A DNA stretch of 54,031 nucleotides from Trichomonas gallinae (lineage: Eukaryota). The notes beneath the pieces are model-generated. The model saw only the letters and a list, made by a program, of their open reading frames with translations. It was not told the DNA's origin and ran no database searches. The stretch lies in assembly GCA_008369845.1 (NCBI GenBank), contig MRSU01010600.1, forward strand, positions 1-54,031. Direction: 5' to 3'. This document shows, piece after piece, positions 130 through 43,687 of the stretch. The translations under genes were made by a program, and so were the position numbers. Numbering within the stretch: position 1 is the stretch's first letter; every line of letters starts with the position of its first letter.

Positions 130-2016
130 TTATTTCTTATTCTTCTGGGCGTTGTCGCTGATTGCGTTGTAGATTTCCATAGAGGCAGCCTTGAGCGCAT
201 CATACTTCTCGTCGATCTTCTTCTCATCGTTGCCAGCTGTGGCATCCTTGAGTTCCTTGATTGAGTCTCTGATTCTCTTGAGGAGGTCAGCTGGGAGCTT
301 CTTCTCGTTCTCAGAGACTGTTTTCTCGATCTCATTGATGTACTGTTCCATGGAGTACTTCTTCTCGAGGACCTCTCTCTTCTTCTTGTCCTCTGCAGCG
401 TGCTTCTCAGCGTCTTCGACCATCTTGGCGATTTCCTCCTGTGAGAGGCCTCCATGCTGCTGGATTGTCATCTGCTGCTCCTTGTTTGTCTGCTTGTCCT
501 TAGCGGAGACGTGGACGATGGAGTTGGCATCGATGTCGAATGTGACTTCGATCTTCGGGACACCGCGTGGGGCTGGTGGGATGCCGACGAGTGTGAACTC
601 ACCGAGGAGCTTGTTGCCCTCGCAGAGTGCTCTCTCACCCTGGAATACTCTGATGTTGACATGTGTCTGGCCATCAGCAGCTGTTGTGAACTCCTGGGAC
701 TTCTTTGTTGGGACGACTGTGTTGCGTGGGATGAGTGGTGCGAAAACGCCGCCCATTGTCTCGATACCGAGGGAAAGCGGGGTGACATCGAGGAGGACAA
801 TGTCCTTGTGGTCGCCACGCATGACTGAGCCCTGGATGGAGGCACCGATAGCAACGACTTCATCTGGGTTGACACCGCGGAATGGGTCCTTGCCGAAGAA
901 CTCGCGGACTGAGTCGATAACCTTTGGCATTCTTGTCATACCACCGACAAGGATAACTTCGTTGATCTGCTGTGGTGTGAGGCCAGCATCCTTGAGGCAA
1001 GCCTTGCATGGATCGATTGTCCTTGCGATGAGGTTGGCTGTGATCTTTTCGAAATTAGCACGTGTTATTGGCATCTGAAGGTGCTTTGGACCAGCGCCTG
1101 TAACTGTGATGTATGGAAGGTTGATTTCTGTTGTCATCATGGAGGAAAGTTCGCATTTGGCCTTTTCAACGGCTTCACGGATTCTCTGAAGAGCGAGTGG
1201 GTCCTTAGCGAGGTCGATCTGGTTCTTAGCCTGGAAGTCCTGGATAACATACTTCATTAAAGCGGAGTCGAAGTCTTCACCACCAAGGAATGTATCACCA
1301 TTTGTAGCCTTAACCTCGAAGACACCATCCTTGCTGATTTCAAGGATGGAGACATCGAATGTGCCACCACCGAGATCGAAGACGGCGACTGTCTGTCCCT
1401 GCTTACGTTCTGTGCCGTATGCGAGAGCAGCAGCTGTTGGCTCGTTGATTGTTCTCATAACGTTCAAGCCAGCGATCTTACCAGCATCCTTTGTGGCCTG
1501 GCGCTGAGAATCGTTGAAATAAGCTGGAACGGTAATAACAGCATCCTTAACTGTTGTTCCGAGGTAAGCCTCAGCTGTCTCTTTCATCTTTGTGAGGACG
1601 AAGGCACCGATTTGAGCTGGTGAATATGTGTTGCCCTTTTCATCCTTGACCCAGGCGTCTCCGCTCTTTGCTTTGACGATTTCATAAGGAACCATTTCAC
1701 GGCATTTCTTTGTCATTTCATCGTCGAATGTACGGCCGATCAAACGCTTTGTGGCGAAGAATGTTGATTTTGAATTTGTGATAGCTTGGCGCTTTGCCTG
1801 CTCACCAACGAGGCGTTCACCACTGCTGGTGAAAGCGACGATAGATGGTGTTGTTCTAACACCCTCAGCGTTCTGGATAACTTTTGGTGTGCCACCTTCA
1901 ACGACAGAGACGCAAGAGTTTGTTGTACCAAGGTCAATGCCGATGATTGGTGTCATTCCTTGCGCAAAGGAACGGGCAAATAAGCTGGCAGAGTACTTTC
2001 CAACACTGCTGAGCAT
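130..2016 (-). CDS. Mitochondrial-type (hydrogenosomal) Hsp70 chaperone, 628 aa
   Basis: Hsp70 motifs [40 protein letters not shown]. Proteobacterial/mitochondrial signatures GDAWV and YSPAQIG. No EEVD or KDEL end. N-terminal extension [18 protein letters not shown] resembles a hydrogenosomal presequence. Confidence 0.97.
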
Positions 2017-2028
2017 AAGTGGTCGTGT

Positions 2029-2036
2029 AAACCGCT
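2029..2036 (-). promoter_or_regulatory. M3-like (Myb-type) core promoter element AGCGGTTT upstream of Hsp70
   Basis: Minus strand reads AGCGGTTTacacgaccacttATG, matching the Trichomonas M3 consensus (DRCSGYTD, from memory) 12 nt before the ATG. Confidence 0.55.
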
Positions 2037-2837: not shown

Positions 2838-4298
2838 TTATGCGTCCATTTCACGCATATCATTCAACTCACATAATTTGTCGAATAATGCTTTTTCTAG
2901 TTCTGTTTGTTCATCAATATCATCGAGAAAATCAAACAGTTCGCTGTCAAGTATCTGCTGAATTATAGTATTCTCTAACATAAAGCTTCCTTCTCTAATG
3001 AAAATTTCAAAAATTTCCATCAAATTCGCGTAAAAATCCCATCTACTGATTTGCCTCACAACTGTGCTCAAGTCACAAAGAGTGAGCATCAAACCATTCT
3101 CGAGCATCTCTCTGCTTGCAGCGAAATAACTTGGAGAAAGTAAAGGAATGAAGAACGAAAAACACTGATTTTTCTCGCTCGAACTTCCAGAGTCAATTTT
3201 TTTAAGCATGAAACTCAAAACATCTGTTTTCATTATTGCTTCAACCGCATCATCATTTCCCATTTTGCAAAGTTCTGTGAACAAATGAGCAAAAGCTTGC
3301 GGAAAGTTATTTGCTCCTGTTTCTGTTGTTTGCGGTAAATGTTTGCAAAATACGTCAATGATTTCTTTAGGAACATCAAACCTTGCTTTTTCGCAAGCAT
3401 TCGCAAGCAAATAAGCCAAATGCTGATCAAAATTGTAGTCGACTTGTAGATCTAGTAGTGGGTGAATGTCTTCTAGAATTTCAGGCAAACGAGGAAAATT
3501 CTCTTCATGGAAAGAAAAAATCGAATTTAAAAGTTCGAAAGAAACCGCAAACATCGTTATTTGTGGATGTTTGTCTCTATAACTTTGGAATAAATCATAT
3601 AACTCATCTCTAGCACTTCCTTGAGCATTCTTCATCTCTTCTTCGAATTTGTTTTCGAGATCTGATTTGATTTTAGTAATAAACTCAATAGTTCTTGGTA
3701 CTGACACTTTTATATATTGTATATACACGTTAATTAACTCATTACACACTTCTTGGTTATAACCATCTGTAAGAATTATGAGTGAATTTATCAATTTTGT
3801 ATTTTGAACGAAAACATTCTGTGAAAAGTTCTCAGGATCCAAGAAAATAACTGCTGTTTTGAGTATGAAGTTGTTTTCTAGTAAAACTGTCTGTAATTTT
3901 TTATCTTTTAATACAAGTGTTTGAAACCAGCCGGCAATGCGATGAAAAACATTTATAAATGTTTCAACTATCCCACTAGAAGTAAACATTTCCAAGTGAT
4001 CTTGTTTAGAAAGCCATAATTTCATGAATGCTGAAATTTCATAAGAAAGATTACCGGTATTAATAAAGTATTGTAGCATTTTATCGATTACTGCAATGTC
4101 CACTTCAACATCGCTATTGGTTAAATCGATTAATTTTGATATAATCATATTGATTAAATTTTTTGGCACTTCTGGATCTTCAAACTGTGGTATTATCTCT
4201 CTATAGAACTCATCGACTTCAAAATCGATAATATCTTGCTCATCTTCGTCCTCGATGTTGTTTTGTGAATTTGGATTTGATTCATCTTTGTACTCCAT
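2838..4298 (-). CDS. Hypothetical alpha-helical (ARM/HEAT-like) protein, 486 aa
   Basis: Long ATG-initiated ORF with an acidic N-terminus and amphipathic helical pattern. Inr-like TCATTT lies just upstream. The fold is inferred. Confidence 0.8.
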   Translation of the reverse strand: MEYKDESNPNSQNNIEDEDEQDIIDFEVDEFYREIIPQFEDPEVPKNLINMIISKLIDLTNSDVEVDIAVIDKMLQYFINTGNLSYEISAFMKLWLSKQDHLEMFTSSGIVETFINVFHRIAGWFQTLVLKDKKLQTVLLENNFILKTAVIFLDPENFSQNVFVQNTKLINSLIILTDGYNQEVCNELINVYIQYIKVSVPRTIEFITKIKSDLENKFEEEMKNAQGSARDELYDLFQSYRDKHPQITMFAVSFELLNSIFSFHEENFPRLPEILEDIHPLLDLQVDYNFDQHLAYLLANACEKARFDVPKEIIDVFCKHLPQTTETGANNFPQAFAHLFTELCKMGNDDAVEAIMKTDVLSFMLKKIDSGSSSEKNQCFSFFIPLLSPSYFAASREMLENGLMLTLCDLSTVVRQISRWDFYANLMEIFEIFIREGSFMLENTIIQQILDSELFDFLDDIDEQTELEKALFDKLCELNDMREMDA

Positions 4299-4385
4299 CG
4301 AGAAATGATTTCATTTCATGTTTATAAAGATAAAAACTAGAAATCCAAAGATTTTTATCAGAAAATAAAGAAAGTATAAAAGTGG

Positions 4386-7300
4386 ATGGAATGGGTTGTT
4401 AAATATATTGTGGAAAACAACCCAGACAAGCTTGTGGATCTGTCCAAAATGCGTGTTAGAACGCATAGACAGATCCCTTGCGACTTCAATGGCCAGATTT
4501 TGGAACTTCATCATCCACTACCTCTTCATTTAGCTATTTATATAGGAAGAAAGGAGATATTTGATGCTCTATTGTACGTTGGTGCTAATGTAAATGAAAT
4601 AGATCCGAATTCGAAAATTCTTCATAATCAAATTGTGCTCCACTTCATATTGCAGCATATAGTAATGATATATACGCTACAAAAGTTCTATTGGCAAGGC
4701 ATGCTGATCCAAATACGATAAATCAAAATAAAATTCATTTTAAATTTACGAAACTCCGCTGCATATTGCAGTTAAAATGCAACATTATGAAATAATTAAA
4801 TTACTTGTTGATAATGGTGCGAATATTAACGCTCAAGATATTCACGGATTTACTCCTCTTTATCGAGCAATCAAAAGAGGGGATATAAACATGTCTGCTT
4901 TCTTTGTGAAGCATAAAGCTAAGACTGATCTCCTCACGGAATCGAATTTAAACGCTTTAAATTTGGCTGAGGATCCACGTAATGTGGCAATCATCGAATT
5001 ATTATCAGGAAAGTCGCTTTTGCTCAAACCTGCGCCAAATGACTTGATTTCTGGTCCAATAACTAGAAATGAATTAATTGATCCTTTTACTGTGGAATTG
5101 CCGCCTTTGCCAGCCACAGATCCATTTGATGGACCACGTCATCCTGAACAAGAGCCAATGCAAAGCTTTTCAGCTCAAGAAAATTATTCTACTCGAAATG
5201 GGCCAAATTATACTGAAAACAGATACTCAAATGCTTATAATCAAGATTTTCAGTATCATCAAAGACAAAACTATAGAAATCAGCCACATTATAATCCTGA
5301 TGCGCCAAAATATGAGCAAAACCCAAGAAATGAGCATTATAAATTAGATCCAGCAAAATTCGAGAACAAACTTAATTATGATGCTCAAAGATCAGATCCA
5401 AAATCAAAATATGGTGAATATACTCCAAAAACAGAGCCGAATTCAAAATATGGTGAATGTACACCGAAATCACAAAAACCAGACCAAAATTCTTCAAATG
5501 ATCAAAATGCAAAAATTGAAACAAAGCAAAACGATGATCAGAATACAGATAATGCACATCAAACAGATCAAAAATCTATAAATGATCAAGATATCTCTGA
5601 ATCTTCAAAATCTGAGCAAAAGCATGAAAACGAACCACCAGCTCGTCCAAGATCTACTCCTAACTTGGTTAAATTGCAAGTTGGCACTCAGAAGCAAGTT
5701 CCTGTACCAGAAATGCATAAAGAAAAACCGAAGCAAAACAGGCCAAAACCATCAGATTTCCTTCAAGCAAAGCAACAACCAAAACCATCAATTGAAAAGC
5801 CGCAGAAACCATATAAGAAGAAAGAAAAGTCAACGCCTGACTTCAAAGAGTACAGACCGAAGCAACAGAAGCAGCCAGAGCCAGCAAAATTCAATATCGA
5901 AATCAAGAAAAATGAATCACTCAAACTCGAAATCACCAAATCAAATTCAACAAGCGACATTCCAAAGGAACAAGAAAACAAACCTGTCCACACGTTTAAG
6001 ATAGAAAAGCCTAAGATCACAATTTCTGCGAAACCAGTAGATCCACCTAAACCAGCTCCATCACAAGAATACAAGATAGAAAAGCCAGCATTCCAGATTA
6101 TTTTCCCCGAAAAAGGTAAACAACTTTTAATCCCTTCACTAACCGTAACAAAGAAAGAAGAAAAGACAGAATTCATTACATGTCCAGTTTGCAAATTCGC
6201 TGGGGCAAGAATTATCTATTTAGTCGAACATTTAGTTCAGAATCATCACATGAATCCACAGTTCGATGCAGAATTTGTTCTCTCTAAATCATCAAAGACA
6301 CAAACAGCCCTTTGTGCTACATGCAACAATGAGTTTCCAATCTCGCAAATCAGAGCCCATATTTTCTCTGAGCACACAGATAATGTCTTAGAGTTCATTG
6401 CAAAAATATCTCAAAACACAGCAATTTCAAAATTCTGCAATGATTATCTCGACAAGAAGAGGAATCCTGTCAAAGAGCAGCAAACAGAAGAAGAATCAGA
6501 AAAATATTCCGATGAATACGATGATGGATTATCTGATGTTAGCGAAGCATATTCTGATGCAAGTGATAATGATTCTGATGATGATGAGGCGGATGCATAT
6601 ATGGCTTTCGTCACAAGCACAATTGATATGAAAGGCTTGGCTGTTTCATCAAAGAAAACGAGCGAAGAAGTAACTGTACAAAAGATTGAAGCAGAAGAAG
6701 AAAAGCCAAAGAAAGTAGAAGAAGAACAAGTTGAAGCAGCTGTTGACTCTTTCGATTTGCTTCAAAACTTGTCATATGTCGAGAAATACATGAGCATCGA
6801 CAAAATGATTCAAACAAATCCAGTTTGTCACTGCAAACTTTGCCAAAAAGATTTCCCGTATGCAGTTACACTCATGAAGCACTGCATGGACAATCACGTT
6901 CCAAAGTTCACACCTCAGTTGCTCAAAACCCTCGATTTCATGAATCCTGGAATAACTTTCGAAAAAACTGACAACGAGTTATTAATCGATCAATCATTGC
7001 ATCTTCGCCTTTTCTGCTATCCAACACTAAGAGCACCAGAAAATCCACGAGTTGAGTTTGAGCTTACTTTCCCCAACTTTTTGGCTTCGCTAATAATCGA
7101 AGCACTTTCCGTCGGAAAAGAGCAACAAATAATTTTCCCGAAGGTATTCGATTCACAAGTCGTCATGCTGCGATTGCCGACACCCACTCCTTTTGTGGTT
7201 ACGACATATGAGCATGAAACTGTTTTCGGCATCATATCAACGCCGCAAATGTCAGCTGATGAAATAGGTAGAACTCTTTCTAGCGTCGCAAACTATGAAA

Positions 7301-7674
7301 GGAATCTCGCTGTTCTGACAATCAGAGTCACGAAAATAGACATCGATCGAATGACTGATGATGAGATATACAACATCGCTGAGACTAATGGATGTACTGT
7401 GCTTAGATCTCAGATGATTGTTGAGAATAATCATAAGAGTTTTGATACTTTCTTTTTCTGCTCGAGTTGGACTGAGCAGACGAAGGAGAACATCAAAGAT
7501 AGCTTCAGTGAGATCTTTTACTACAGCGAAGTCAGCACCTGCGGAAAATGCGGCAAAATGTTTTTGACAAGGGATGCTGAGAGCAAATGCGATGATGGAG
7601 AAAACCATATAGTTGATAATACTGTATCCACCGCTGAATTCTTTGAGTTTACTGTTGATGAAATTTCAAATTAA
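4386..7674 (+). CDS. Ankyrin-repeat and C2H2 zinc-finger protein encoded in three frames (about 4386-4610, 4631-4729, 4747-7674; about 1083 aa if joined)
   Basis: Segment 1 ends PLHLAIYIGRKEIFDALLYVGANVNEIDPN. Segment 2 (different frame, absent from the ORF track) is NCAPLHIAAYSNDIYATKVLLARHADPNTINQN. Segment 3 starts YETPLHIAVKMQHYEIIKLLVDNGANINAQDIHGFTPLY. Downstream are a P/K/Q/N low-complexity region, CPVC..H..H, CATC..H..H and CKLC..H..H fingers and an acidic tract. Confidence 0.8.
4611..4630 (+). other. Frame-disrupting insert 1 in ankyrin gene (17-20 nt; candidate non-canonical intron or recoding site)
   Basis: TCGAAAATTCTTCATAATCA lies between ...IDPN and NCAPLH. Removal restores the frame and the 33-aa repeat spacing. 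No GT/AG ends. Exact boundaries are ambiguous by a few nt. Confidence 0.6.
4730..4746 (+). other. Frame-disrupting insert 2 in ankyrin gene (17 nt; candidate non-canonical intron or recoding site)
   Basis: AAAATTCATTTTAAATT lies between ...TINQN and YETPLH. It contains no G at all. Removal restores the frame and the 33-aa spacing. Confidence 0.6.
5398..5475 (+). repeat. Two-copy 39-bp coding tandem repeat
   Basis: PKSKYGEYTPKTE / PNSKYGECTPKSQ; TCAAAATATGGTGAAT occurs twice, 39 bp apart. Confidence 0.8.
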
Positions 7675-7949
7675 ATAAAATATATTATATATACTTTTAA
7701 CATAATCAATCCATCTTTCAACAGCCATATTCCCATAATATTAAACTATTTATTGAGATTTAAAAAAATAAATTATGTAAACATTTTAAGAAATTATCAG
7801 TGATCATAAGTGTTAATATAGAGAAATATTGATAAAATTATGAATATTTCTTAGATTCTGTGAAAGATATTCGAAAAATATTTTTGATTAATTAAAGATA
7901 TTGGTAAACAGTAGAGCAGGATAAATAATATGTTCAACTTTTATGGAAT

Positions 7950-8342
7950 TTAGAAGAACATGCCAAGGATCTTGCCACCAGCGTTCTTCTTACGGGCCTC
8001 TTCATGATCGAGGATTCCCTTGTCTGTGGAAAGAACGACATAGCCGAACTGGCGGGATGGGAGGAGCTTGGCCTGCCACATCTCGAGATCACCAAGACCG
8101 ACGTCGAAGCGTGGGCAGATAGCGACGCACTTGTTAAGGCGGCCGAGGAGGTTGATGACGATCTTGCCGGAGCGGTGGTCATCGATAACCTCGAAATCGC
8201 CGATGTAGTTACGAGCCATCATAACCTTGAGGAAGGCGATGATGACCTTGGAGGATGGGCGGATCATAACCTGGCGCATACCACGGCGCTCGGCGTTGGT
8301 GATAGCTTTGAGGGCATCAGCAAGAACGGAAGTGCGGACCAT
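7950..8342 (-). CDS. RPS15A: 40S ribosomal protein S15a (uS8), 130 aa
   Basis: [69 protein letters not shown]. The true start is the ATG at 8342, not 8429. Strong high-expression codon bias. Confidence 0.98.
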
Positions 8343-11904: not shown

Positions 11905-13440
11905 ATGATGAATATTAGAGCAGATGATGCTATTGATGAAAACCAGTCTTTGGTTAAGTCAAAAGCATCATCTTCTCGCAACCCGCAGGATTACATTGCT
12001 AGATCTTTACTGCCGTTTACTTTGATGTTGGGTGTATTAATTCTTGCGCAATTCACAGATAAACTACTGCCACAATCACTAGAAATCAGCAATATTATAC
12101 CCCAAAGCGGAAATTTATCGAAAATTTTCGTTATTAAAATCTCTGAAATTCCCAAAACTTTCCAATATTTCGAATCTAAGTTATATTTCACAAGTCAAAG
12201 TCCACCATCAAAGCCTTTCAATGTCAAAATACTATATAACAATACAATAACTCGTAAAAACGAAAATATCACAAAACAAATCACGCTTTTGCGTCCAAAT
12301 GCATTCTCCACTGTAGTATTTTCACGTAGTTATACTCTTTCGAATTTGAAAAACGACATAATATACAAAATTCAAAACATTCCGGAAGAAGTTACGGGAT
12401 ACAACTTTCAAATACGCGGAATTTCTCTATACACATATTATTTTTCGATCATACATACGGCTTTTGTTATCATTGCTTTAATAATTTTAGGATTCATCAC
12501 GATAAAATCTATTTTACGCAAAAACATTAATTCATGCGATATTATTAATCCATGCTTTTATGTATCATGTATAGCATACATTTTCCCATATGATTGGTTC
12601 AATATTCCATATATTTTTATAATCAAGGCATTTTTTACTTCATTTTATCCAGGATTATTTGCATTTTTGTCATTTAAGATACTTGAAGATGCAGGTCCAC
12701 TTGTTCCACTTCCTGTTATATTCAAAGAATGGACAACACACAAATTATCAATTTTTATTTCCGTTACATGGTTTTTAAACGGAATTTTCATAGAAAAAGT
12801 ATATAGTTATGTATTTTATGCGGTATTTATTATTGTATATTTAATATATTCGTATTATATTCATGCATTATATAAAATAATGCAATGTCAACAGAGAAGA
12901 ATAGAAGAAAGCTATGCATTATGGCTTAGATTGTTATTTCTTGTTATATCTTTACTTTTCTTTTCAAGGAAAGTTTTTTATTTTATAATAATACCATTTC
13001 AGATTGCAAAAACGATAGAAATGATGTCTATCTGGGTTACAATAGGAACAGTTGTTGCCTCTATTAATATTTTAACGATCAGCACGAATAACACATTTAT
13101 TAATATTTCTTATTCCAAAGATGACAGCAAATACCTTGATTCTCTCTTCGGCAGCCCAGATAACAGCTCACAGAAGTATTCCAAAGGACAAGAGTCGAAT
13201 ACACAAGAAGATTTATCCACAGCAAAAATCGTTGACGGAATCTTCAGCAAAGAGTATCCAGAGGAGAGCTTTGGAGGCCAGCAGTACATGCAAAACAATC
13301 AGGTCTACAACAACTACCTAGGAATGCAGTATGACTACGACTACCAGAACCAGAATAACTACGGGCCTCCAATGTACGAGCAAGAATACTACAAAGATAA
13401 TAATATACAGAACCAAATGTACTTGCAATCATTGTATTGA
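11905..13440 (+). CDS. Multi-pass membrane protein (N-terminal TM, lumenal domain, about 7 TM, Y/Q/N-rich tail), about 511 aa
   Basis: Hydrophobic LLPFTLMLGVLILA, about 130-aa hydrophilic domain, then about 7 hydrophobic segments. First in-frame ATG at 11905. Confidence 0.85.
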   Translation: MMNIRADDAIDENQSLVKSKASSSRNPQDYIARSLLPFTLMLGVLILAQFTDKLLPQSLEISNIIPQSGNLSKIFVIKISEIPKTFQYFESKLYFTSQSPPSKPFNVKILYNNTITRKNENITKQITLLRPNAFSTVVFSRSYTLSNLKNDIIYKIQNIPEEVTGYNFQIRGISLYTYYFSIIHTAFVIIALIILGFITIKSILRKNINSCDIINPCFYVSCIAYIFPYDWFNIPYIFIIKAFFTSFYPGLFAFLSFKILEDAGPLVPLPVIFKEWTTHKLSIFISVTWFLNGIFIEKVYSYVFYAVFIIVYLIYSYYIHALYKIMQCQQRRIEESYALWLRLLFLVISLLFFSRKVFYFIIIPFQIAKTIEMMSIWVTIGTVVASINILTISTNNTFINISYSKDDSKYLDSLFGSPDNSSQKYSKGQESNTQEDLSTAKIVDGIFSKEYPEESFGGQQYMQNNQVYNNYLGMQYDYDYQNQNNYGPPMYEQEYYKDNNIQNQMYLQSLY

Positions 13441-17243: not shown

Positions 17244-17546
17244 TCAAAGATAGGTATATTTAGAATTATCAAATGATATATCACATGTCTGTTCCTTACA
17301 ATCAACATTCACAATACTATTCGTTTTGTCTCGATTGTGTTTACTAGTATCTGATAATTTAGATGCAGGACATGGTTGATAAAGGCCTTTTTTAACTGGA
17401 TTCAAACAAAATGTATCATATTGATATGAATTATTAACAAAAACTGCTTTGTAAATTCTATTAATGACAAGAATTGTCGAATCCATGAATAAGTCAACAA
17501 TACCATGATAATAAATGCAAGGTAGATAATTATGCATATTTGACAT
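17244..17546 (-). other. Possible small ORF or gene fragment (100 aa)
   Basis: ATG-initiated 303-nt ORF in AT-rich spacer; no recognisable domain. Confidence 0.2.
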
Positions 17547-17772
17547 TTATCAGGATAACTAGCAGGCAATACAGAATCAAACACTATAATATATATATTA
17601 TAGTATATACCCTATATATCTATAATAGTTATATGATTTCTACTAGTTCATAAACAGAGATATATTAGAAAATAAGGTTCCAAAAACTGAGGAACTCACC
17701 CTTAAAAAAATGAATACATGATTTATAAAACACAAAAAAAAATAACTTTATTTTAATACAAACATATAATTA

Positions 17773-20632: not shown

Positions 20633-22459
20633 TTATTCTTCTTCTTTTTCTTCTTTGTCGAGGCCTTCTGGTTTGACTGCTAATTCAGGGAAATGTTCAC
20701 CTAACTTAAAAACTTCGAAAGGAATGACGCCTTTCTTTATGTGAAGACAAACATTGTTCTTGCTGATCATTCCTCCGTATTTAATGTCTGTTCCTTCGAT
20801 GTAAGCGAACATTCCACCCCTCATTGACGAAGAGAACTCTTTTCCTGCGTTTTCGGACAAAAGATTGAACTCTATTCCTCCATTTCCTATTTCTAGGAGC
20901 TTCTTCATGTCTTCTGCTGTGACTGCGAACTTCCTGTTCTTCGATGAAGCGAAAGCGACGTCAATTCCATCGAAGCATGGTGTTCCGTGGACAGCTGAGT
21001 CATCTTTAAGCCTCTTCCAGCTGAAAACTCTTGCTCCGCATGAAACAGCCCTGAGAACTTCAGGCTTTGCATTCATAACAATTTGAGATGCGGCCTCATT
21101 CATCAGAATGATGGAATGGACGCTTTTCTCTGCACGAGCGAAGCAGTTCTTCTTCAAAATGTCATCGTTGAGGTCGTATTCAGCCTTGAGTTTGTCGAAG
21201 ATGTCCTCGCCTTCGACACGCTCGATCTGTACGAACGGTGGCTCCGGCCATTTCCCTGTTGGTCTCGGATTCATTGGTACAGGTGTTGTGACTTCACCTG
21301 TCTTCTCGAGCACGCAAACGAAGAAGCCGCCTGTGTCATTGAGGTGCGGCAAGAATCTCATGGCGTGCTCTATTCCTTCCACTACATCTACTGGGAACAT
21401 AGTCTCTGGGACTCTCTTCCTGATTTCTTCTGGAACTTCGCTGAAATTGTTGAACTCTTTCTCGTCGTTGCAGACGTGCCACGATTTGAGGCCTGGCAGT
21501 CTCTTGAGCTGTGGGTACTTGCTTGAGACATCGACAATCTTTACATTACCCTTCATTTCTCTTAAAACAGACGAAACAACTGCTTCATCTTCAATTGGAT
21601 TGAGGCTGCATGTTGAATAAACACATCTGCCACCAATTTTGAGCAATCTCAATGCTTTGACGAGAATTGCACGCTGTACTGCGTGAAGACCGGCTCCTTC
21701 TGATAGTCTCCAGTTAGGGCCGGCATCTGGGGACTTCCTGAGTGTGCCATCGCCGCTGCATGGGACATCGCAGACGATTCTGTCGAATTGTGTGATCTCA
21801 GGGAACTGCTGGCCAGCGTGGCTTGTTACAATTGTCTGGCGGTTGTCGAGACGCTGAAGGCGGCCTGCTAGTGTTCTGCAGCGCTTCGCGTTGACTTCAT
21901 TGGCAACTACAATGCCTTCTACTGGTTTTCCGTTTGCTTGTTTGAGCATCATTTCCAAAACTTGCGTTGTTTTTGATCCTGGCGCCGCGCACATGTCTAA
22001 AACGAAGTGTTCTGGCTTGAGATCGAGGAAATATGGTGGAATCATTGATACGAGCTCTTGTCTGCTGAAATCTCCGCATGCTTCGTGAACGTGAAGCCAT
22101 TCTCTGAATGGTTGAAGTGCAGGGTTCTTCCTGAAGTTCGGATTATCGATGGACATCTTGTATATTTCACCAAATTCATCGCCAAATACGTCTATTTTGC
22201 TAATTTCGATATTTGATTTTTTGAGTTCTTCGAAATGTGTATTTAATGTTGATTTAACGCGATCTGCATCATGTGCAATAGGATTAAGACGGAAAACGTG
22301 TGGTAAAGAGATTCTAAAAGATTCAATCATTTGATTGAAACTTTCTTCATCGAGAATACTCGGAACAAATTGCATTTTATAATAGTTTATGAATTCATCT
22401 TTAATGAAACCTGCTTCTGCTAAATTCTCTGGTTTTTTGCGTCTTTCAGACTTAGGCAT
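20633..22459 (-). CDS. NOL1/NOP2/Sun-family RNA m5C methyltransferase, NSUN2/Trm4-like
   Basis: SRQELVSMIPP, VLDMCAAPGSKTTQ, FDRIVCDVPCSGDGTLRK, VYSTCSLNPIEDEAVV, RFLPHLNDTGGFF. Both catalytic cysteines are present. Start is probably MPKSERRKK (22459); 22504 is an alternative. Confidence 0.93.
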   Translation of the reverse strand: MPKSERRKKPENLAEAGFIKDEFINYYKMQFVPSILDEESFNQMIESFRISLPHVFRLNPIAHDADRVKSTLNTHFEELKKSNIEISKIDVFGDEFGEIYKMSIDNPNFRKNPALQPFREWLHVHEACGDFSRQELVSMIPPYFLDLKPEHFVLDMCAAPGSKTTQVLEMMLKQANGKPVEGIVVANEVNAKRCRTLAGRLQRLDNRQTIVTSHAGQQFPEITQFDRIVCDVPCSGDGTLRKSPDAGPNWRLSEGAGLHAVQRAILVKALRLLKIGGRCVYSTCSLNPIEDEAVVSSVLREMKGNVKIVDVSSKYPQLKRLPGLKSWHVCNDEKEFNNFSEVPEEIRKRVPETMFPVDVVEGIEHAMRFLPHLNDTGGFFVCVLEKTGEVTTPVPMNPRPTGKWPEPPFVQIERVEGEDIFDKLKAEYDLNDDILKKNCFARAEKSVHSIILMNEAASQIVMNAKPEVLRAVSCGARVFSWKRLKDDSAVHGTPCFDGIDVAFASSKNRKFAVTAEDMKKLLEIGNGGIEFNLLSENAGKEFSSSMRGGMFAYIEGTDIKYGGMISKNNVCLHIKKGVIPFEVFKLGEHFPELAVKPEGLDKEEKEEE

Positions 22460-22891
22460 TATATATTTAAGGGGGACACACTTATTATGAGGGGGATGCA
22501 TCATATTTCAGGGGTAAATCAGACATCATCGACAACAAGCCTCACCGCGCTAAATCATGATAATACTAGTCGAATAGAACACTTACCATCAAACAAAACT
22601 TAATTTACTGCATTAATATAATCAGAGGATTTAAAATTATTGAGATTAATGAATTTATATCTCAAAAATGATATAGCTTGTGTTTATTTAAGATATTTGT
22701 ATTTTAAGATAACTAGTTTATATTTTGACTTAAAATAGTGTTTACAAACATGGTGATAAATCGAAACTCATTTTGACAATTTCATGATTTTTTGACAAAA
22801 TTTGACGTTTTCGTGGGATGTTTGACATTGTAATGAAAAATTTTGACAAAATTTGTTGATAATTTGTGTTTACAAATAATCTGTTATAAAT

Positions 22892-23553: not shown

Positions 23554-24207
23554 ATGAATGATGCTAAAATCATTAGTAGCAAGCAATTAAAAAGCATCAC
23601 ACCATTGATAACATTCATCATTGATGGTGTTAAGCTTTATCCTCATTCAAAATACCCACGACCTCTTCTCACTACAGATGACGAAGAATTCGAATCCCAA
23701 AAAATCACGAAAAAAGATATTATAACAGAAGAATTATACCATGTATTGTATTTCTTACAAAATTCCGCACTGAATCTTTCAGGTCAGCAAAGAGTCTTAT
23801 TACGTACTGAAGACAAACAAGTAATATTCGTTGATCCACGTTTGAAAGTCCCAGAGGTATTCGATGACTACTTAGCAATGCTTCATTTATTGATGGATGA
23901 TAGGAGAATTTGTTCTGTTGAGAAAGGCTCTGAAATCATGAAGTTTGTTAAAAGTGATCTATCGCATAGCCTTCCTACAGGTGCAAAACGTATCTGTGCT
24001 TACTTATCTAAGACTGATAAAATCACATCACCAAATGATTTCCTTAGCTTAGAGCCAACTGCTGTTTATATTCATTTAGATCCCTTCACAAAGTCACATG
24101 ATGAAGTTATGCTAGGAAGCTATTGTGTTTCAAACGATACACTTACACCTGTTACTCTTGCTTCCCGTCTTCTTAAGGCTGTTGAGCAAAAAGCTCAAAT
24201 TTGGTAA
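23554..24207 (+). CDS. Divergent EMG1/Nep1-like SPOUT-fold protein, 217 aa
   Basis: LYHVLYFLQNSALNLSGQQRVLLRTEDKQVIFVDPRLKVPEVFDDYLAMLHLLM aligns by eye to the Nep1 core (THQxLLxLxDSPLNxAGxLQVYIxTxxxVLIEVNPxxRIPRTFxRFxGLMxQLL). Also SHSLPTGAKRI and SNDTLTPVTLASRLLKAVEQ..W. Confidence 0.75.
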   Translation: MNDAKIISSKQLKSITPLITFIIDGVKLYPHSKYPRPLLTTDDEEFESQKITKKDIITEELYHVLYFLQNSALNLSGQQRVLLRTEDKQVIFVDPRLKVPEVFDDYLAMLHLLMDDRRICSVEKGSEIMKFVKSDLSHSLPTGAKRICAYLSKTDKITSPNDFLSLEPTAVYIHLDPFTKSHDEVMLGSYCVSNDTLTPVTLASRLLKAVEQKAQIW

Positions 24208-28838: not shown

Positions 28839-30158
28839 ATGAAATCCCCGAAAACGAGAGAGCACGTCATATCCCTGCCTGTCGAGGTCAACAGACATAT
28901 CCATATCACATTAGATTCCAATGGTACATATCAGAACGTGCCTAGGTCTATGCTACCGGCATTTATAAATAAAACCCACGGAAATGTAATTAATGATACA
29001 GAATTCAGTCCCGAAGTCCTACCAAATAAATATAGTACAGTCGATGGACACTTAATTTCTGGTTTAATTGATGTTGAGCATGTTTTACACGTAACTGTTG
29101 ATGAAGACAAAGGATTCATTGGTTTGCCTCCAGATTTGGAGCGTGCAGTCAAGGCAAGTGGCATATCACATCAAGATATTATAAAGAATCCAGATAAAGC
29201 TGTAAACATTATTAATTTTATGTCAGGGGGAAATCAAAATCTTCCACCGCCTTCAATTGAAAAACCGTTAACAGAATTGCCTCCAGTGGAGCAAGTAATT
29301 AAAATTGGAGATCCAAGAGCCGTTTTAGAAGGATTAACAAAAATTGATGAAGGCTCAACATGCACAGTTTATACTGCGATGTATCAAGGAAAGAAAATTG
29401 CCGTTAAAGAAATGTTATTAAACGAAAAAACAGAGAAAATTCTTATTGATGAAACACGATTAATGTCTACGATGAAAGATCCACACATTACAGAATTCTA
29501 CGATGCTTACCGCGATGGAGACAAGCTATGGATCTTCATGGAATTGATGGATGGAGGATCATTGACAAATGTTGCAACCTTCTGCGATTGTCAGGAACCT
29601 CACATTGCATTCTTCGCAAGAGAAATCCTTCACGCACTCAAATACATGCATTCGCAAAATAAAATACATAGAGACATCAAAACGGATAATGTTCTTCTTA
29701 CATCAGACGGTCAAGTTAAAATTTCCGACTTCGGATATACAATACAACTATCGGATCATTCTGATAAGCGCAGATCTATTGTAGGAACGCCTTATTGGAT
29801 GGCTCCGGAATTAATTCAAGCAACACCTTATAACTATAGCGTAGATATTTGGTCGCTTGGTATACTTTGTCGCGAATTGGCAGAAGGTGAGCCACCTTAT
29901 GTCCAAGAGCCGCCGATGAAGGCACTTTTCTTAATTGTATCGAAAGGTATCCCTGAGATATCTAACAAGAAGGAAAGAAGTCCGGAGTTTTTAGATTTCT
30001 TATATAAATGCCTAGAAAGAGAAGCTGATAAACGACCCACCGCAGAACAACTCCTAGAACATCCGTTCATTAAAACGGCTTGTCCCCTTAAGTTTATTCC
30101 ACCCCTTATTTTGTTGGCTAAGCAACTTGCTAATGATGATGAATTTGAAAGTTTTTAA
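28839..30158 (+). CDS. STE20/PAK-family Ser/Thr kinase with two CRIB-like motifs, 439 aa
   Basis: IAVK, HRDIKTDN, DFG, SIVGTPYWMAPE, DIWSLG, LAEGEPPY. N-terminal ISLPVEVNRHIHI and ISGLIDVEHVLHV. Confidence 0.95.
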   Translation: MKSPKTREHVISLPVEVNRHIHITLDSNGTYQNVPRSMLPAFINKTHGNVINDTEFSPEVLPNKYSTVDGHLISGLIDVEHVLHVTVDEDKGFIGLPPDLERAVKASGISHQDIIKNPDKAVNIINFMSGGNQNLPPPSIEKPLTELPPVEQVIKIGDPRAVLEGLTKIDEGSTCTVYTAMYQGKKIAVKEMLLNEKTEKILIDETRLMSTMKDPHITEFYDAYRDGDKLWIFMELMDGGSLTNVATFCDCQEPHIAFFAREILHALKYMHSQNKIHRDIKTDNVLLTSDGQVKISDFGYTIQLSDHSDKRRSIVGTPYWMAPELIQATPYNYSVDIWSLGILCRELAEGEPPYVQEPPMKALFLIVSKGIPEISNKKERSPEFLDFLYKCLEREADKRPTAEQLLEHPFIKTACPLKFIPPLILLAKQLANDDEFESF

Positions 30159-32207: not shown

Positions 32208-35204
32208 TTAGGCTGTGAAACCGAACTTGTTGAGGATCTCCTTGACAGCCGGGAAGACCTCCTTTGTGACCTTCATCGTCTTAACACTGACGGCTGTTGA
32301 AGCTGGAGCAGCCTGGGCGGCGGCACCCTTCTTCTTCTGTTGCTGCTTCTTTGGAGCTGTGACATCGAATGGCTGGCACGGTGGGGCGAACTTGCCACCC
32401 TGCTTTGACTCTTCGAACTGCTTCTTGGCGGCAGCGTTGATTGGCTCGAAGACGGCGTTGATCTCCTTGGCGAGGTCAGCGGCGATGTCCTGCTGGACCA
32501 TACCGACGATGTAGGATGGGCCTTGGACGAGGATGGACTTCTTGGCCATCTCTGGGAACTGTTTGCAGGCCTCTTCAATGCCCTTGATGAAGGATGTACC
32601 GTTCTCCTCTGTTCTGAGGACGATGTGTCTGTCACCTGGCTGGAAGGCGCAGCATCTGACGAGCAAGTTGATGACCTGGTCTGTGAGGGACTTGTTCTGG
32701 GATGTGAGCTGGTTCTTGGCAGCGAAGAACTTTGTGCAGTTGCCCATGATTTCCTGTGGAAGGCAGTCGAAGACGCCGCAGACGTCGTGGATCATCTTCA
32801 TATCCTCGCAGGCGGCCTTGATGGCGAGCTTGCCGGCGACGAATCTGCATCTGAAGACACCATCCTGGACGGAGTTGACACCGAGGATCTTGATCTGGCC
32901 GATCTCAGAAAGTCTTGAGACATGTGTTCCGCAGCAGGCTTCTGTATCGATGCCACCGATGTCGACAACTCTGATGGCGTCACCTGGGATGGCACCACCC
33001 TGGTAGAGGACGAAGCCCCATGTGTCTTCAGCTTCCTTACGTGTGTAGATGGACTTCTTGACGGCAGCGTTTGTCATGACGAGCTCGTTAGCGACGCGCT
33101 GGATCTCGACGACCTGCTCGAATGTTGGGAGGGAGTAGTGTGTAAGGTCGATGTGGGATTCAACCTTTGTCTTCTTGGCACCGTTCTGCCAGACGTGTGG
33201 ACCTAAGACTTTGCGGGCTGCAGCAGCGACGATGTGTGTAGCAGAGTGCTGTGTTCTCATGATCTCTCTGATCTCTGGGTCAACGAACATTGTGCATTCT
33301 GTGCCGATGAGTGACTCTGGGACATCAGCGTCGAGTGTGAAGATGGCGACCTTCTTAACCTTCTCAATGTTGAGAACTGTGTAGAGCTTGTCGCCGATCT
33401 TGATCTTGCCGTCATCGTGCTCCTGACCACCCTGTGTTGGGTAGAGGATTGTTCTGTCGAAGCAGACCTTTGTTGGGGCGAGGACCTTGATGAGCTTGGC
33501 TGTAGCCTCGTACTTGTACTCGTTCTCTGGGTAGTTGTAGATTTCCTCTGTGTCTGGGATGTCCTTGACGTCGTATGGGTCGAGAGCGATGCCCTTAGCT
33601 GTGCGGCACTTGTAGTCCTGGAGCTTGATGTAGAGATCGTCTGGCTTCTGGAGCTGTGAGTTCGGGTCGTCGACTGTGAAGGCTTCGATGATGTCGTCGG
33701 CAGAGACACCGTTGGATGTCATCTGGATGATCCACTCGTTGACTGGGATCTCCTTGCCGCGCCACTTGTTGACGAAGTTCTTGAGGAGCTTGATAGCGTT
33801 GGAGTGGGAGTTCTCCCAGCGTGTGTACTCGAGGCGGATGACATCCTCGAGGCAGCGGAGGTTGGAGAATGGACCGAAGAAGCCCTCGAGGCCCTTTGTG
33901 TGGGCCTTGAAGATTTCGATGATGCCATCAACACCGCCGATCTTCTCGAGCCAGTTGCGCTTCTTGATGATGTCGAAGACGATTCTGAGGATATCACGGA
34001 TGTTGCCAGCACCACCGACGTTGGATGGGAGGGCACCGTCTTCGATAGCGTAAAGAACTGTACGTGTGTGATCGCAGATGCGGACGAGATCGGAGAATTC
34101 GCGGAGATGGTTGCGGAACTTTGTAAGTCCAGCCTTGTCGAGTCCCATTTCAGTGCCGACCTTAGCCCATGTCTCTTCGATGTGCTGGTTCTCATCAGCG
34201 TCGAAGAGAGCTGTGTTTGGAGCGAACTTGCGGAATTCTGGTGTATCGATAGCGACACCAACCTTCTCGCCGAGGACTGGGAGGATGTAGTCGAAGACAT
34301 CGAGGTAGGATGTCCAGCCACCGTTGACCAACCATGGGATACGCTCGAGGCCGATACCGACATCGACGACCTTTGTTGTGATTGGCTCGAACTTGCCGTC
34401 TGGTGTGACGGAGTACTCTGTGAAGACCATGTTACCGATTTCGAGACCGCCGTAGAAGTATTCTACGCAGGCGCCGCAGTTGCCACCGCCAGCCCAGACG
34501 TCCTCGATGAATGTGAGCTTCTTTGGATCGAGCTTGAGTGTCTCGATGCACCATCTGTAGTTGTTAGCGATGAGTGTGTCCTTCCAGAAGATTTCTTCGT
34601 ATTCGCCGTACATGTTTGGCTCCTTGCGCTGGCGGTCAGCTCTGTTGAAGACCTGAATGCCGAGCATGTTGAAGCCGGAGTAGTGACGGCCTGTGATACC
34701 GATGTTATCAAGATCGTTGAAACGGAGGCAGAACTGGCAAGCGCAGAGTGGGTTAGCCGGTGGCTCAGACTCGCCAGTGACGCAGAATGGCTGGAAGCAG
34801 TAAATGCCAGCAGCGACGAATTCGACATCGGACCTCCAGCGGCAAACGACTGGATAACGCTTGATTGCTGTGTATGGGACTGGCTCGTTTGTCTCCATGG
34901 ACTTCTTGAAGTCGAGCCATGCCTGTAAGTATGTAACTCTTTCCTTCGGTGGTTCATCTGGGTGAAGGAATGAGTAACCGCCTGCACACTCTGAGTCACC
35001 ACAGTCCTTGCGGTCGTGGTCAGCTGTCCAGAACCTCTTGTGGCAGTGTTCGCACTCTTTCTGGATGAATCCTTTTGATGTTAAGAACTTGAATGGCCAT
35101 GGATTGTGGCCGCTCGCCTTAAGCTGCGCGAAGTACTTTCTGGCAGCAGCCTTGACTTCACTTGGTGTTAAGTTAAAAGTCTGTTGAGCTTCCTCCTTAG
35201 ACAT
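32208..35204 (-). CDS. alaS: Alanyl-tRNA synthetase, archaeal-type, 998 aa
   Basis: N-terminal CEHC..FWT..CGD..C..YSF zinc motif, RYPVVCRWRSD, CLRFNDLDNIGITGRH, WAGGGNCG, GLEIGNMVF, VDVGIGLER, DHTR. Editing domain HSATH..QNGAKK..EACCGTH. Confidence 0.96.
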   Translation of the reverse strand: MSKEEAQQTFNLTPSEVKAAARKYFAQLKASGHNPWPFKFLTSKGFIQKECEHCHKRFWTADHDRKDCGDSECAGGYSFLHPDEPPKERVTYLQAWLDFKKSMETNEPVPYTAIKRYPVVCRWRSDVEFVAAGIYCFQPFCVTGESEPPANPLCACQFCLRFNDLDNIGITGRHYSGFNMLGIQVFNRADRQRKEPNMYGEYEEIFWKDTLIANNYRWCIETLKLDPKKLTFIEDVWAGGGNCGACVEYFYGGLEIGNMVFTEYSVTPDGKFEPITTKVVDVGIGLERIPWLVNGGWTSYLDVFDYILPVLGEKVGVAIDTPEFRKFAPNTALFDADENQHIEETWAKVGTEMGLDKAGLTKFRNHLREFSDLVRICDHTRTVLYAIEDGALPSNVGGAGNIRDILRIVFDIIKKRNWLEKIGGVDGIIEIFKAHTKGLEGFFGPFSNLRCLEDVIRLEYTRWENSHSNAIKLLKNFVNKWRGKEIPVNEWIIQMTSNGVSADDIIEAFTVDDPNSQLQKPDDLYIKLQDYKCRTAKGIALDPYDVKDIPDTEEIYNYPENEYKYEATAKLIKVLAPTKVCFDRTILYPTQGGQEHDDGKIKIGDKLYTVLNIEKVKKVAIFTLDADVPESLIGTECTMFVDPEIREIMRTQHSATHIVAAAARKVLGPHVWQNGAKKTKVESHIDLTHYSLPTFEQVVEIQRVANELVMTNAAVKKSIYTRKEAEDTWGFVLYQGGAIPGDAIRVVDIGGIDTEACCGTHVSRLSEIGQIKILGVNSVQDGVFRCRFVAGKLAIKAACEDMKMIHDVCGVFDCLPQEIMGNCTKFFAAKNQLTSQNKSLTDQVINLLVRCCAFQPGDRHIVLRTEENGTSFIKGIEEACKQFPEMAKKSILVQGPSYIVGMVQQDIAADLAKEINAVFEPINAAAKKQFEESKQGGKFAPPCQPFDVTAPKKQQQKKKGAAAQAAPASTAVSVKTMKVTKEVFPAVKEILNKFGFTA

Positions 35205-43201: not shown

Positions 43202-43687
43202 ATGTCTACCAACAATAACGTACTTGTCGCATACTTCACACACAGCGGAAACACAAAGACAGCTGCCGAAATCATCCACAATATCGTCGGTGGCACTCTT
43301 TATGAGATCAAGGGAGATAATCACTATCCACACGATTATCATTCGACAACAGCTCAAGCACAAAAGGAGCAAAGAGAAAACTTCAGACCAAATCTCGTCA
43401 ACCCAATACCAGACATTGATAAGTATGACACAATCATCATCGGCAATCCATGCTGGTGGGGAACATTCCCAATGGTCACATTCACATTCCTAGAGAAATA
43501 TGGATTCGAAGGAAAGAAGATCCTTCCTTTCGTTACCCACGGAGGAAGCGGCTTAGGATCAGAAGTAGAAGATATCAAGAGAACATGCCCTAAGGCTAAG
43601 GTAGCAAGTGGACTCGCAATATATGGCTCACGTGCTTCTGGTTCTAAGGCTGCAATTGAGAAATGGCTCAAACAAAACGGATTTTAA
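43202..43687 (+). CDS. Bacterial-type flavodoxin (Flavodoxin_4-like), 161 aa
   Basis: VLVAYFTHSGNTK, YDTIIIGNPCWWG, GKKILPFVTHGGSGLG. Inr TCATTTTT about 10 nt upstream. Confidence 0.93.
   Translation: MSTNNNVLVAYFTHSGNTKTAAEIIHNIVGGTLYEIKGDNHYPHDYHSTTAQAQKEQRENFRPNLVNPIPDIDKYDTIIIGNPCWWGTFPMVTFTFLEKYGFEGKKILPFVTHGGSGLGSEVEDIKRTCPKAKVASGLAIYGSRASGSKAAIEKWLKQNGF

What the first reader, a model, noticed from the sequence alone, without database searches (positions are those of the whole stretch)
4386..4800. Ankyrin gene split by two related non-GT-AG micro-inserts at the same repeat position: candidate non-canonical micro-introns or programmed recoding
Seen in sequence: consecutive ankyrin repeats are spread over three frames, and the middle segment (4631-4729) is exactly 99 nt, one intact repeat. 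Both breaks sit in the loop before the (T)PLH motif and both need removal of 3n+2 nt. The last 17 nt of each insert align without gaps: AAAATTCTTCATAATCA (4614-4630) and AAAATTCATTTTAAATT (4730-4746), consensus AAAATTCnTnnTAA. In both, the TAA is in the downstream frame exactly five codons before the Pro. Removal gives GANVNEIDPN-NCAPLH and HADPNTINQN-YETPLH, the spacing of the uninterrupted next junction (GANINAQDIH-GFTPLY). The following 2.9 kb is fully open. Established: known trichomonad spliceosomal introns are GT-AG with a branch point fused to the 3' site (ACTAAC...AG) and are about 25 nt or longer; neither insert fits. Sliding the boundaries permits AT...AA ends (4609-4631, 23 nt; 4728-4744, 17 nt). 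Inference: random pseudogenisation or sequencing error would not give two position-matched, sequence-related insertions, so an undescribed splicing, bypass or frameshift mechanism is plausible. My unverified recollection is that parabasalid ankyrin gene models often run into I/F/N-rich junk at this loop.
Basis: partly seen in the sequence, partly recalled or inferred. Interest (0 to 1): 0.9.

Follow-up and report, generated by a model that had tools for sequence, protein, structure and literature searches.

The report
Seventeen-base AT-ended introns in Trichomonas
An ankyrin-repeat gene of a trichomonad parasite is interrupted by two 17-base pieces that start with AT instead of the usual GT; related sequence records lack exactly these pieces, so they are likely real introns, shorter and differently marked than any trichomonad intron in the catalogues read here, and likely invisible to the surveys made so far.

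Summary
Both inserts are 17 nt, phase 0 and follow an AAA codon: 4617-4633 (AT...AT) and 4733-4749 (AT...AC). They flank a 99-nt, one-repeat exon (4634-4732).

Two independent records lack one insert each. (1) A contig from a probable RNA run lacks exactly 17 nt at 4733, while a DNA contig with the same five substitutions keeps them. (2) The T. vaginalis orthologue has insert 1 at the same place and size in its 2007 model. Its 2022 model lacks exactly those 17 nt, and that assembly was polished with RNA-seq reads.

The pieces are conserved in the spliced frame, so this is neither a sequencing error nor a pseudogene. The in-frame TAA is not conserved, which weakens recoding.

Likeliest mechanism: the major spliceosome removing a spacer-less, A(+1) variant of the trichomonad type B intron (0.5); non-spliceosomal excision 0.25. 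No read-level evidence, no full-length protein on record, and only one gene examined. Published Trichomonas catalogues list only GT-AG introns of 23 nt or more and filter on those motifs.

The parts
4386..4616 (+). Exon 1 (coding): ATG, unique N-terminus and ankyrin repeat 1; 77 codons, ends in AAA (Lys)
   Evidence: Sequence; Pfam Ank; 64 of 77 residues identical to T. vaginalis P0006
4617..4633 (+). Insert/intron 1, 17 nt, phase 0, ATTCTTCATAATCAAAT (AT...AT), no slide ambiguity
   Evidence: The only removal that gives the S-K-C junction of the T. vaginalis 2022 model; present at the same place and size in the T. vaginalis 2007 model; kept in DNA contig X1. Removal from RNA is inferred from the T. 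vaginalis records.
4625..4627 (+). TAA at intron positions 9-11; candidate degenerate branch site (inferred), not conserved in relatives
4634..4732 (+). Exon 2, 99 nt, exactly one ankyrin repeat, ends in AAA (Lys)
   Evidence: Pfam Ank; 15 of 20 residues identical to T. vaginalis in the spliced frame, 9 of 19 in the read-through frame
4719..4721 (+). Stop met if insert 1 is retained (111-aa product)
   Evidence: matching proteins P0005 (111 aa) and T. vaginalis TVAG_271000 (102 aa)
4733..4749 (+). Insert/intron 2, 17 nt, phase 0, ATTCATTTTAAATTTAC (AT...AC), no slide ambiguity
   Evidence: 17 letters left out at place 4733 in contig 4 of run X2, kept in X1; the place is read as the first missing base
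4741..4743 (+). TAA at intron positions 9-11; candidate degenerate branch site (inferred)
4750..7674 (+). Exon 3 (coding): further ankyrin repeats, a long low-complexity linker and a C-terminal region with CxxC...HxxxH zinc-finger-like motifs; the three exons would give 1,084 aa
   Evidence: C-terminal part 57% identical to T. vaginalis TVAG_271010

Best explanation
The gene is one conserved trichomonad ankyrin and zinc-finger gene broken by two 17-base inserts (AT...AT and AT...AC) that are likely cut out of the mRNA as introns, most likely by the ordinary (U2-type) spliceosome. Shown: position, size and ends of the inserts; both must go to give the 1,084-aa frame; one record lacks insert 2 and another lacks insert 1, base-exactly. 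Inferred: that those records reflect spliced RNA. Inferred, untested: the intron is a type B intron stripped of its spacer, that is a 6-nt donor (GTWYWD with A at +1) fused to an 11-nt branch-site/acceptor block with a branch A at -7 or -8 and A at -2. The terminal G...G pair would be replaced by A...C or A...U, as in U2-type AT-AC introns. Splicing is probably partial, and the unspliced RNA stops at 4719.
For:: contig 4 of run X2 (173 nt, 4642-4831, 91 nt left and 82 nt right of the gap) lacks 17 nt at 4733. All 5 of its substitutions are shared with the 12.2-kb DNA contig of X1, whose 22 gap letters are all insertions elsewhere. X2 covers only 4642-7640, inside the gene.

T. vaginalis TVAG_271000 (2007; also in Logan and ENA contigs) reads K-ILHIFI-ALHF. 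The 2022 model XP_001322632.2 reads K|CSPLH and is 'partial'; 309-17 = 292 nt = 97 codons + 1, as expected of a lifted model on a sequence missing 17 nt. (PMC12289875): that assembly was Pilon-polished with RNA-seq reads mapped by BWA, and models were moved with Liftoff.

conservation in the spliced frame (64/77, 15/20); 13 of 16 listed exonic X1 substitutions in 4386-4990 are synonymous.

no microhomology at either junction; both inserts match the type B donor apart from +1, have A at -2 and TAA at -9..-7. Among 14,978 AT-rich 17-mers of the window, 14.7% match the donor, 1.3% donor plus AT...AY, 0.06% all features (chosen after the fact). Real type B donors include GTTCAG, GTTCAA and GTTCTA; the six shortest lose one base at -4; the branch distance may be 7 or 8 nt. 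U2-type AT-AC introns exist (PMC1557818), as do 15-nt and 18-nt introns.
Against: Each insert has only one record lacking it. The X2 record is one contig at depth 3.2 in a run whose RNA status is the tool's guess; the tool warns that one contig under depth 5 may be an error. The T. vaginalis 2022 DNA was not seen, only its protein. The insert 2 boundary depends on reading 'place 4733' as the first missing base; 4734-4750 (TT...CG) would also restore the frame and would not fit this mechanism.

No full-length protein was found. Two T. vaginalis Logan contigs (3,495 and 3,338 nt) give a protein starting at MPLH, so they are unspliced, DNA or cut short.

There is no CTAAC branch site and no AACAG acceptor, although both are strongly conserved in trichomonads. 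The TAA is not conserved (X1, P0005, T. vaginalis). The full motif occurs 10 times in the window, twice on the sense strand of the intact ORF 11905-13437, so it cannot alone select the sites. In PMC1557818 AT-AT ends are tabulated for U12-type introns only.
Confidence: 0.5

Rival explanations
1. The 17-base pieces are removed from RNA, but by a non-spliceosomal cut-and-ligate route (an endonuclease plus an RtcB-type ligase, or something undescribed) that measures a fixed 17 nt or reads the flanking ankyrin-coding sequence.
For: The same removal evidence. Fixed length in both sites and both species; no CTAAC or AG; identical repeat position; shared exon context AAA| and CATATTGCAG 13-22 nt downstream. 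3n+2 lengths of 20-26 nt are typical of HAC1/XBP1 introns (recalled).
Against: No IRE1-type CNG|CNG site, bulge-helix-bulge helix only 3/4 and 2/4, no significant folding (z -1.4 to +0.5). The ends AT...AY with +2 U and -2 A and the type B-like donor are what spliceosomal chemistry predicts.
Confidence: 0.25
2. The missing bases are a DNA-level difference or an artefact: organism A and the 2022 T. vaginalis assembly simply lack one insert (strain indel, intron loss, assembly or reverse-transcription error), and the window's gene is split.
For: X2 is only guessed to be RNA and is one low-depth contig; the 2022 T. vaginalis DNA was not seen; no full-length protein is on record.
Against: It needs two separate 17-nt, frame-restoring, microhomology-free deletions at homologous sites. 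The 2007 assembly of the same strain G3 has insert 1. X2 shares all 5 substitutions with X1, which keeps insert 2. A gene split in DNA would not keep exon 2, which has no start codon of its own, conserved in frame.
Confidence: 0.12
3. The inserts stay in the mRNA and the ribosome shifts frame or bypasses them.
For: In the window both inserts hold a TAA at the same place; some records retain the inserts.
Against: The TAA is lost in X1, P0005 and T. vaginalis; no XXXYYYZ heptamer in the upstream frame; no stable hairpin; it does not explain records lacking exactly 17 nt.
Confidence: 0.08
4. A decayed 5' end or two separate genes: a short ankyrin ORF and a 965-aa protein started at 4777, with the inserts as old lesions.
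For: This is how T. vaginalis is annotated (TVAG_271000 and TVAG_271010); Met 4777 could start a long ORF.
Against: Segments 1-2 are more conserved than the C-terminal part (83% and 75% against 57%), and segment 2 is conserved in the frame it reaches only by removal. Insert 1 has kept its exact length across species, and X2 has a contig running from exon 2 into exon 3.
Confidence: 0.05

Closest known systems
Trichomonas type B spliceosomal introns (Wang et al. 2018, PMC6260720; Callejas-Hernandez et al. 2025, PMC12316389; Yeh et al. 2026, PMC13548475)
   Same: Very short, fixed-length, A/T-rich; donor positions +2 to +6 fit GTWYWD; A at -2; TAA where the branch site of the shortest type B introns lies. 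Several ankyrin genes carry phase 0 type B introns (S2 Table).
   Different: 17 nt against 23-28 nt; A not G at +1; ends AT or AC not AG; no TCTAAC or AACAG; no T-rich spacer; the TAA is not conserved across species.
U2-type (type II) AT-AC introns, e.g. human SCN4A and SCN5A (Sheth et al. 2006, PMC1557818); AT-AC splicing in Giardia (Roy et al. 2012, title seen in a reference list)
   Same: Major-type donor with A at +1; insert 2 ends in AC.
   Different: Those keep full-size bodies (recalled); here 17 nt, one AT-AT end, no clear branch consensus, two in one gene at the same repeat position.
U12-type introns with AT-AC or AT-AT ends (PMC1557818 Table 2)
   Same: The same pair of terminal dinucleotides.
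   Different: No ATATCCTT donor or TCCTTAAC branch site (consensus recalled); PMC12316389 reports U12-type introns absent from T. vaginalis.
Tiny spliceosomal introns: Stentor coeruleus 15 nt, Bigelowiella 18 nt (as cited in PMC12316389), myxozoans about 22 nt (PMC13644364)
   Same: Length shows that a spliceosome can handle 17 nt.
   Different: Those are GT-AG (recalled for Stentor and Bigelowiella) and genome-wide.
IRE1/RtcB (HAC1, XBP1, bZIP60) and tRNA-endonuclease introns (features recalled)
   Same: Short, non-GT-AG, frame-shifting 3n+2 length.
   Different: No hairpin with CNG|CNG at either site, no bulge-helix-bulge; the gene is not a bZIP factor.

Membership tests
Trichomonas type B intron | GT...AG ends | tested here: not met
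   AT...AT and AT...AC
Trichomonas type B intron | Donor GTWYWD at positions +2 to +6 | tested here: met
   Both inserts; 14.7% of AT-rich 17-mers also match
Trichomonas type B intron | TCTAAC(H)AACAG branch site fused to the acceptor | tested here: not met
   Only TAA at -9..-7 and A at -2; TAA not conserved
Trichomonas type B intron | Length 23-28 nt | tested here: not met
   17 nt; the listed minimum is 23 nt in both species
U2-type AT-AC intron | AT...AC ends with a major-type donor | tested here: inconclusive
   Met by insert 2 if the place is read as the first missing base; insert 1 ends AT
U2-type AT-AC intron | Removed from mRNA | tested here: inconclusive
   One probable-RNA contig and one RNA-polished annotation; no raw reads
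U2-type AT-AC intron | Lariat formation; dependence on U2, U6 and Prp8 | not testable with these tools
   Needs bench work
U12-type intron | ATATCCTT donor and TCCTTAAC branch site (recalled) | tested here: not met
   Sequence of both inserts
U12-type intron | Minor snRNAs in the genome | not testable with these tools
   No genome held; PMC12316389 reports no U12-type introns
IRE1-type intron | CNG|CNG loops on hairpins at both sites | tested here: not met
tRNA-endonuclease (bulge-helix-bulge) intron | 4-bp helix between two 3-nt bulges at the sites | tested here: not met
   3/4 and 2/4 pairs
Programmed -1 frameshift or bypass | Slippery heptamer, or conserved stop plus hairpin | tested here: not met
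   No heptamer printed; TAA not conserved; weak folding

The most novel reading that the evidence does not exclude
Trichomonads have a third, hidden intron class: fixed 17-nt AT...AY micro-introns without a recognisable branch site, removed by a specialised or non-spliceosomal route. They would be spread through repeat-protein genes now annotated as split or pseudogenes, and partly erased from the T. vaginalis reference genome by RNA-based polishing.
Probability: 0.3. Interest if true: 0.93.

Novelty: new variant of a known kind. Interest (0 to 1): 0.8.

Why it matters
T. vaginalis is a textbook intron-poor eukaryote whose roughly 50-60 introns are said to be all GT-AG and at least 23 nt. Both recent surveys kept only junctions with the known motifs, so a 17-nt AT...AY class could not have been found. 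If real, it sets a near-minimal size for an intron with non-canonical ends, gives a direct test of how a reduced spliceosome finds sites with no branch consensus, rejoins two annotated genes into one, and suggests that other split trichomonad gene models are intact. It also flags a practical problem: the reference assembly was polished with RNA-seq reads and may have lost short introns.

Tried and rejected
No whole genome is held, so no genome-wide ankyrin or insert scan was possible. No listed holder run is on record as RNA. Runs X3 and X5 gave nothing on the breaks, and X2 has no contig over insert 1; absence of cover is not used as evidence. X4 and X6 were never laid. The insert 2 boundary was not pinned independently of the tool's place convention, and X2 was not tested on a long intergenic stretch.

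No full-length spliced protein was found: C-terminal search, 2 hits; N-terminal search of longer proteins, 14 hits, all generic ankyrins, weak evidence by the tool's own note. The 42 hits are C-terminal-domain relatives; named ones are from Histomonas and Tritrichomonas, and the 8 viewed besides P0001 start without ankyrin repeats. The metagenome scan gave 1 locus, a chance antisense match in a bacterial gene.

Folding around the sites was not significant. IRE1, bulge-helix-bulge and slippery-site tests were negative. There are no strict type A or B introns in the window, and a scan for other frame-rescuing 17-mers gave 20 hits, none besides the two here with support. A search for a conserved ankyrin intron position in other eukaryotes found nothing usable. 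Five look-ups in earlier findings gave nothing on this locus or on trichomonads.

Full report
Observation. The window is gene-dense, about 35% GC trichomonad-like DNA. The locus has an orthologue in Trichomonas vaginalis, so the source is inferred to be a Trichomonas relative; the species was not determined. Ankyrin repeats at 4386-4900 lie in three frames, and each piece hits Pfam Ank.

The inserts are in other DNA too. A 12,215-nt contig of run X1 (DNA by the tool's guess, bird metagenome) covers 4200-7758 with 194 substitutions. Its 22 gap letters are all insertions away from the breaks, so both inserts are present. The T. vaginalis 2007 model TVAG_271000 (P0048, 102 aa; NCBI, Logan, ENA) reads EIDPNSK-ILHIFI-ALHF where the window reads EIDPNSK-ILHNQI-VLHF: same place, same size. 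The next gene model, TVAG_271010, starts at MPLH in repeat 3. Whether T. vaginalis has insert 2 cannot be told from proteins.

Records that lack the inserts. Insert 2: contig 4 of run X2 (RNA by the tool's guess; 21 Mb, longest record 8 kb) spans 4642-4831 in 173 letters, with 17 left out at place 4733 and 5 substitutions, all 5 shared with X1. X2's pieces lie only within 4642-7640, inside the gene. It is one contig at depth 3.2. I read the place as the first missing base, giving 4733-4749 with AT...AC ends; 4734-4750 is the alternative. Insert 1: the 2022 T. vaginalis model XP_001322632.2 (P0006, 97 aa, 'partial') reads EIDPNSK|CSPLHIAAYANDIYTTRVLV. Its length is the 2007 CDS minus 17 nt (309-17 = 292 = 97 x 3 + 1), and among all 14-26-nt removals of length 3n+2 tried, only 4617-4633 gives the same S-K-C junction. 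PMC12289875 (passages) states that the 2022 assembly was polished with Pilon using Illumina, Sanger and RNA-seq reads mapped by BWA, and that 2007 models were moved with Liftoff. The simplest reading is that spliced RNA reads overwrote the insert; an annotated 17-nt intron would point the same way. I did not see that DNA.

Selection. Segment 1 is 64/77 identical to T. vaginalis. Segment 2 is 15/20 identical in the spliced frame and 9/19 in the read-through frame. Of the 16 exonic X1 substitutions listed for 4386-4990, 13 are synonymous in the spliced frames, 4 of 6 in segments 1-2. I left out four rows upstream of the ATG and one inside insert 1; the tool showed 40 of 199 rows. Both inserts must go: with insert 1 kept the frame stops at 4719, and with only insert 1 removed it stops 53 codons after 4634. 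The joined frame would be 1,084 aa.

Anatomy. Both inserts are 17 nt, phase 0, follow AAA, lie two codons before the Pro of xPLH, contain no G, start ATTC, have A at -2 and cannot slide; they share 9 of 17 bases. The third junction (DIHG-FTPLY) has no insert. Positions +2 to +6 fit the type B donor GTWYWD, and the last 11 nt carry TAA at -9..-7, where the branch site of the shortest type B introns lies. So 17 = 6 + 11 with no spacer. This is suggestive only. The TAA is changed in X1, in P0005 and in T. vaginalis, though an A remains at -7 or -8 in each (from for X1, from the encoded residues for the other two). The full motif occurs 10 times in the window, twice inside an intact ORF. IRE1, bulge-helix-bulge, hairpin and slippery-site tests were negative.

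Against. No full-length protein is on record. Two T. vaginalis Logan contigs yield only the MPLH-started protein. There are no raw reads, each insert rests on one record, and only one gene was examined. Retention in some records would not be unusual: most validated T. vaginalis introns gave both spliced and unspliced cDNA.

Mechanism. Removal from RNA is about 0.75 likely in all: spliceosomal 0.5, non-spliceosomal 0.25. DNA-level difference or artefact 0.12, recoding 0.08, split gene 0.05. It works like a U2-type AT-AC micro-intron, but it fails membership of type B on ends, length and branch motif, and of U12-type on motifs.

Known or new. [quoted passage not shown] PMC13548475 (parts 1-3 of 7, passages, Table S1) is also motif-guided. 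TVAG_271000 and TVAG_271010 occur in neither paper's searchable supplements (3 and 5 files). One supplement store gave no answer, figures are not held, and tables may use 2022 gene ids that I do not have. Also seen as passages: PMC6260720, PMC10711314, PMC6679479, PMC2396436, PMC1557818, PMC1266365 (64, not relevant). PMC13644364: abstract and introduction (68, 72). PMC10639083: no mention of Trichomonas in the main text. Searches listed no report of 17-nt or AT-ended introns in trichomonads; the library lacks most subscription journals.

Verdict. A real, cross-species-conserved feature, probably a pair of 17-nt AT...AY introns. New variant of a known kind; categorically new if removal proves non-spliceosomal. 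Interest 0.8.

Noticed in passing
Literature: PMC12316389, PMC6260720, PMC12289875: Three 25-26-nt type B introns listed as functional in 2018 (TVAG_056030, TVAG_324910, TVAG_416520) were dismissed in 2025 as false positives because the new assembly has the CDS without the intron. That assembly was polished with RNA-seq reads, so these may be true introns erased from the reference.
   Followed up: partly
window 6154-7671; P0007-P0047: The C-terminal zinc-finger-like region defines a family (42 hits; named members from Histomonas meleagridis and Tritrichomonas musculus) with a shared motif near 'AFxxSxIxxxG'. The members viewed lack N-terminal ankyrin repeats. No good Pfam match.
   Followed up: partly
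PMC12316389 S2 Table: Ankyrin-repeat genes recur among T. stableri type B intron hosts, mostly phase 0 with a first exon near 100 nt; whether they sit at the same repeat position as the 17-nt inserts is unknown.
   Followed up: no
window 17247-17611, - strand: Overlapping short ORFs in different frames (100 aa and 69 aa) with no Pfam match; possibly a frameshifted or decayed small gene.
   Followed up: partly
window 29439-29455, + strand: A 17-mer after AAA that resembles insert 1 (ATTCTT...AC) lies inside the intact PAK-like kinase ORF; a natural negative control for the splicing signal.
   Followed up: no
window 2838-4298 (-) and 4386 (+): The ankyrin gene is head-to-head with its neighbour, only 87 nt between the start codons, so the promoter region is probably shared.
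   Followed up: no
window 130-2034, 7950-8342, 20633-22504, 28839-30158, 32208-35204, 43202-43687, 43781-51556: Ordinary intact genes, named from their translations: organellar-type Hsp70, ribosomal protein S15a, RNA m5C methyltransferase, PAK-like kinase, alanyl-tRNA synthetase, a bacterial-like flavodoxin and a 2,591-aa BEACH/WD-like protein. EMG1 at 23554-24207 is confirmed by Pfam.
   Followed up: no
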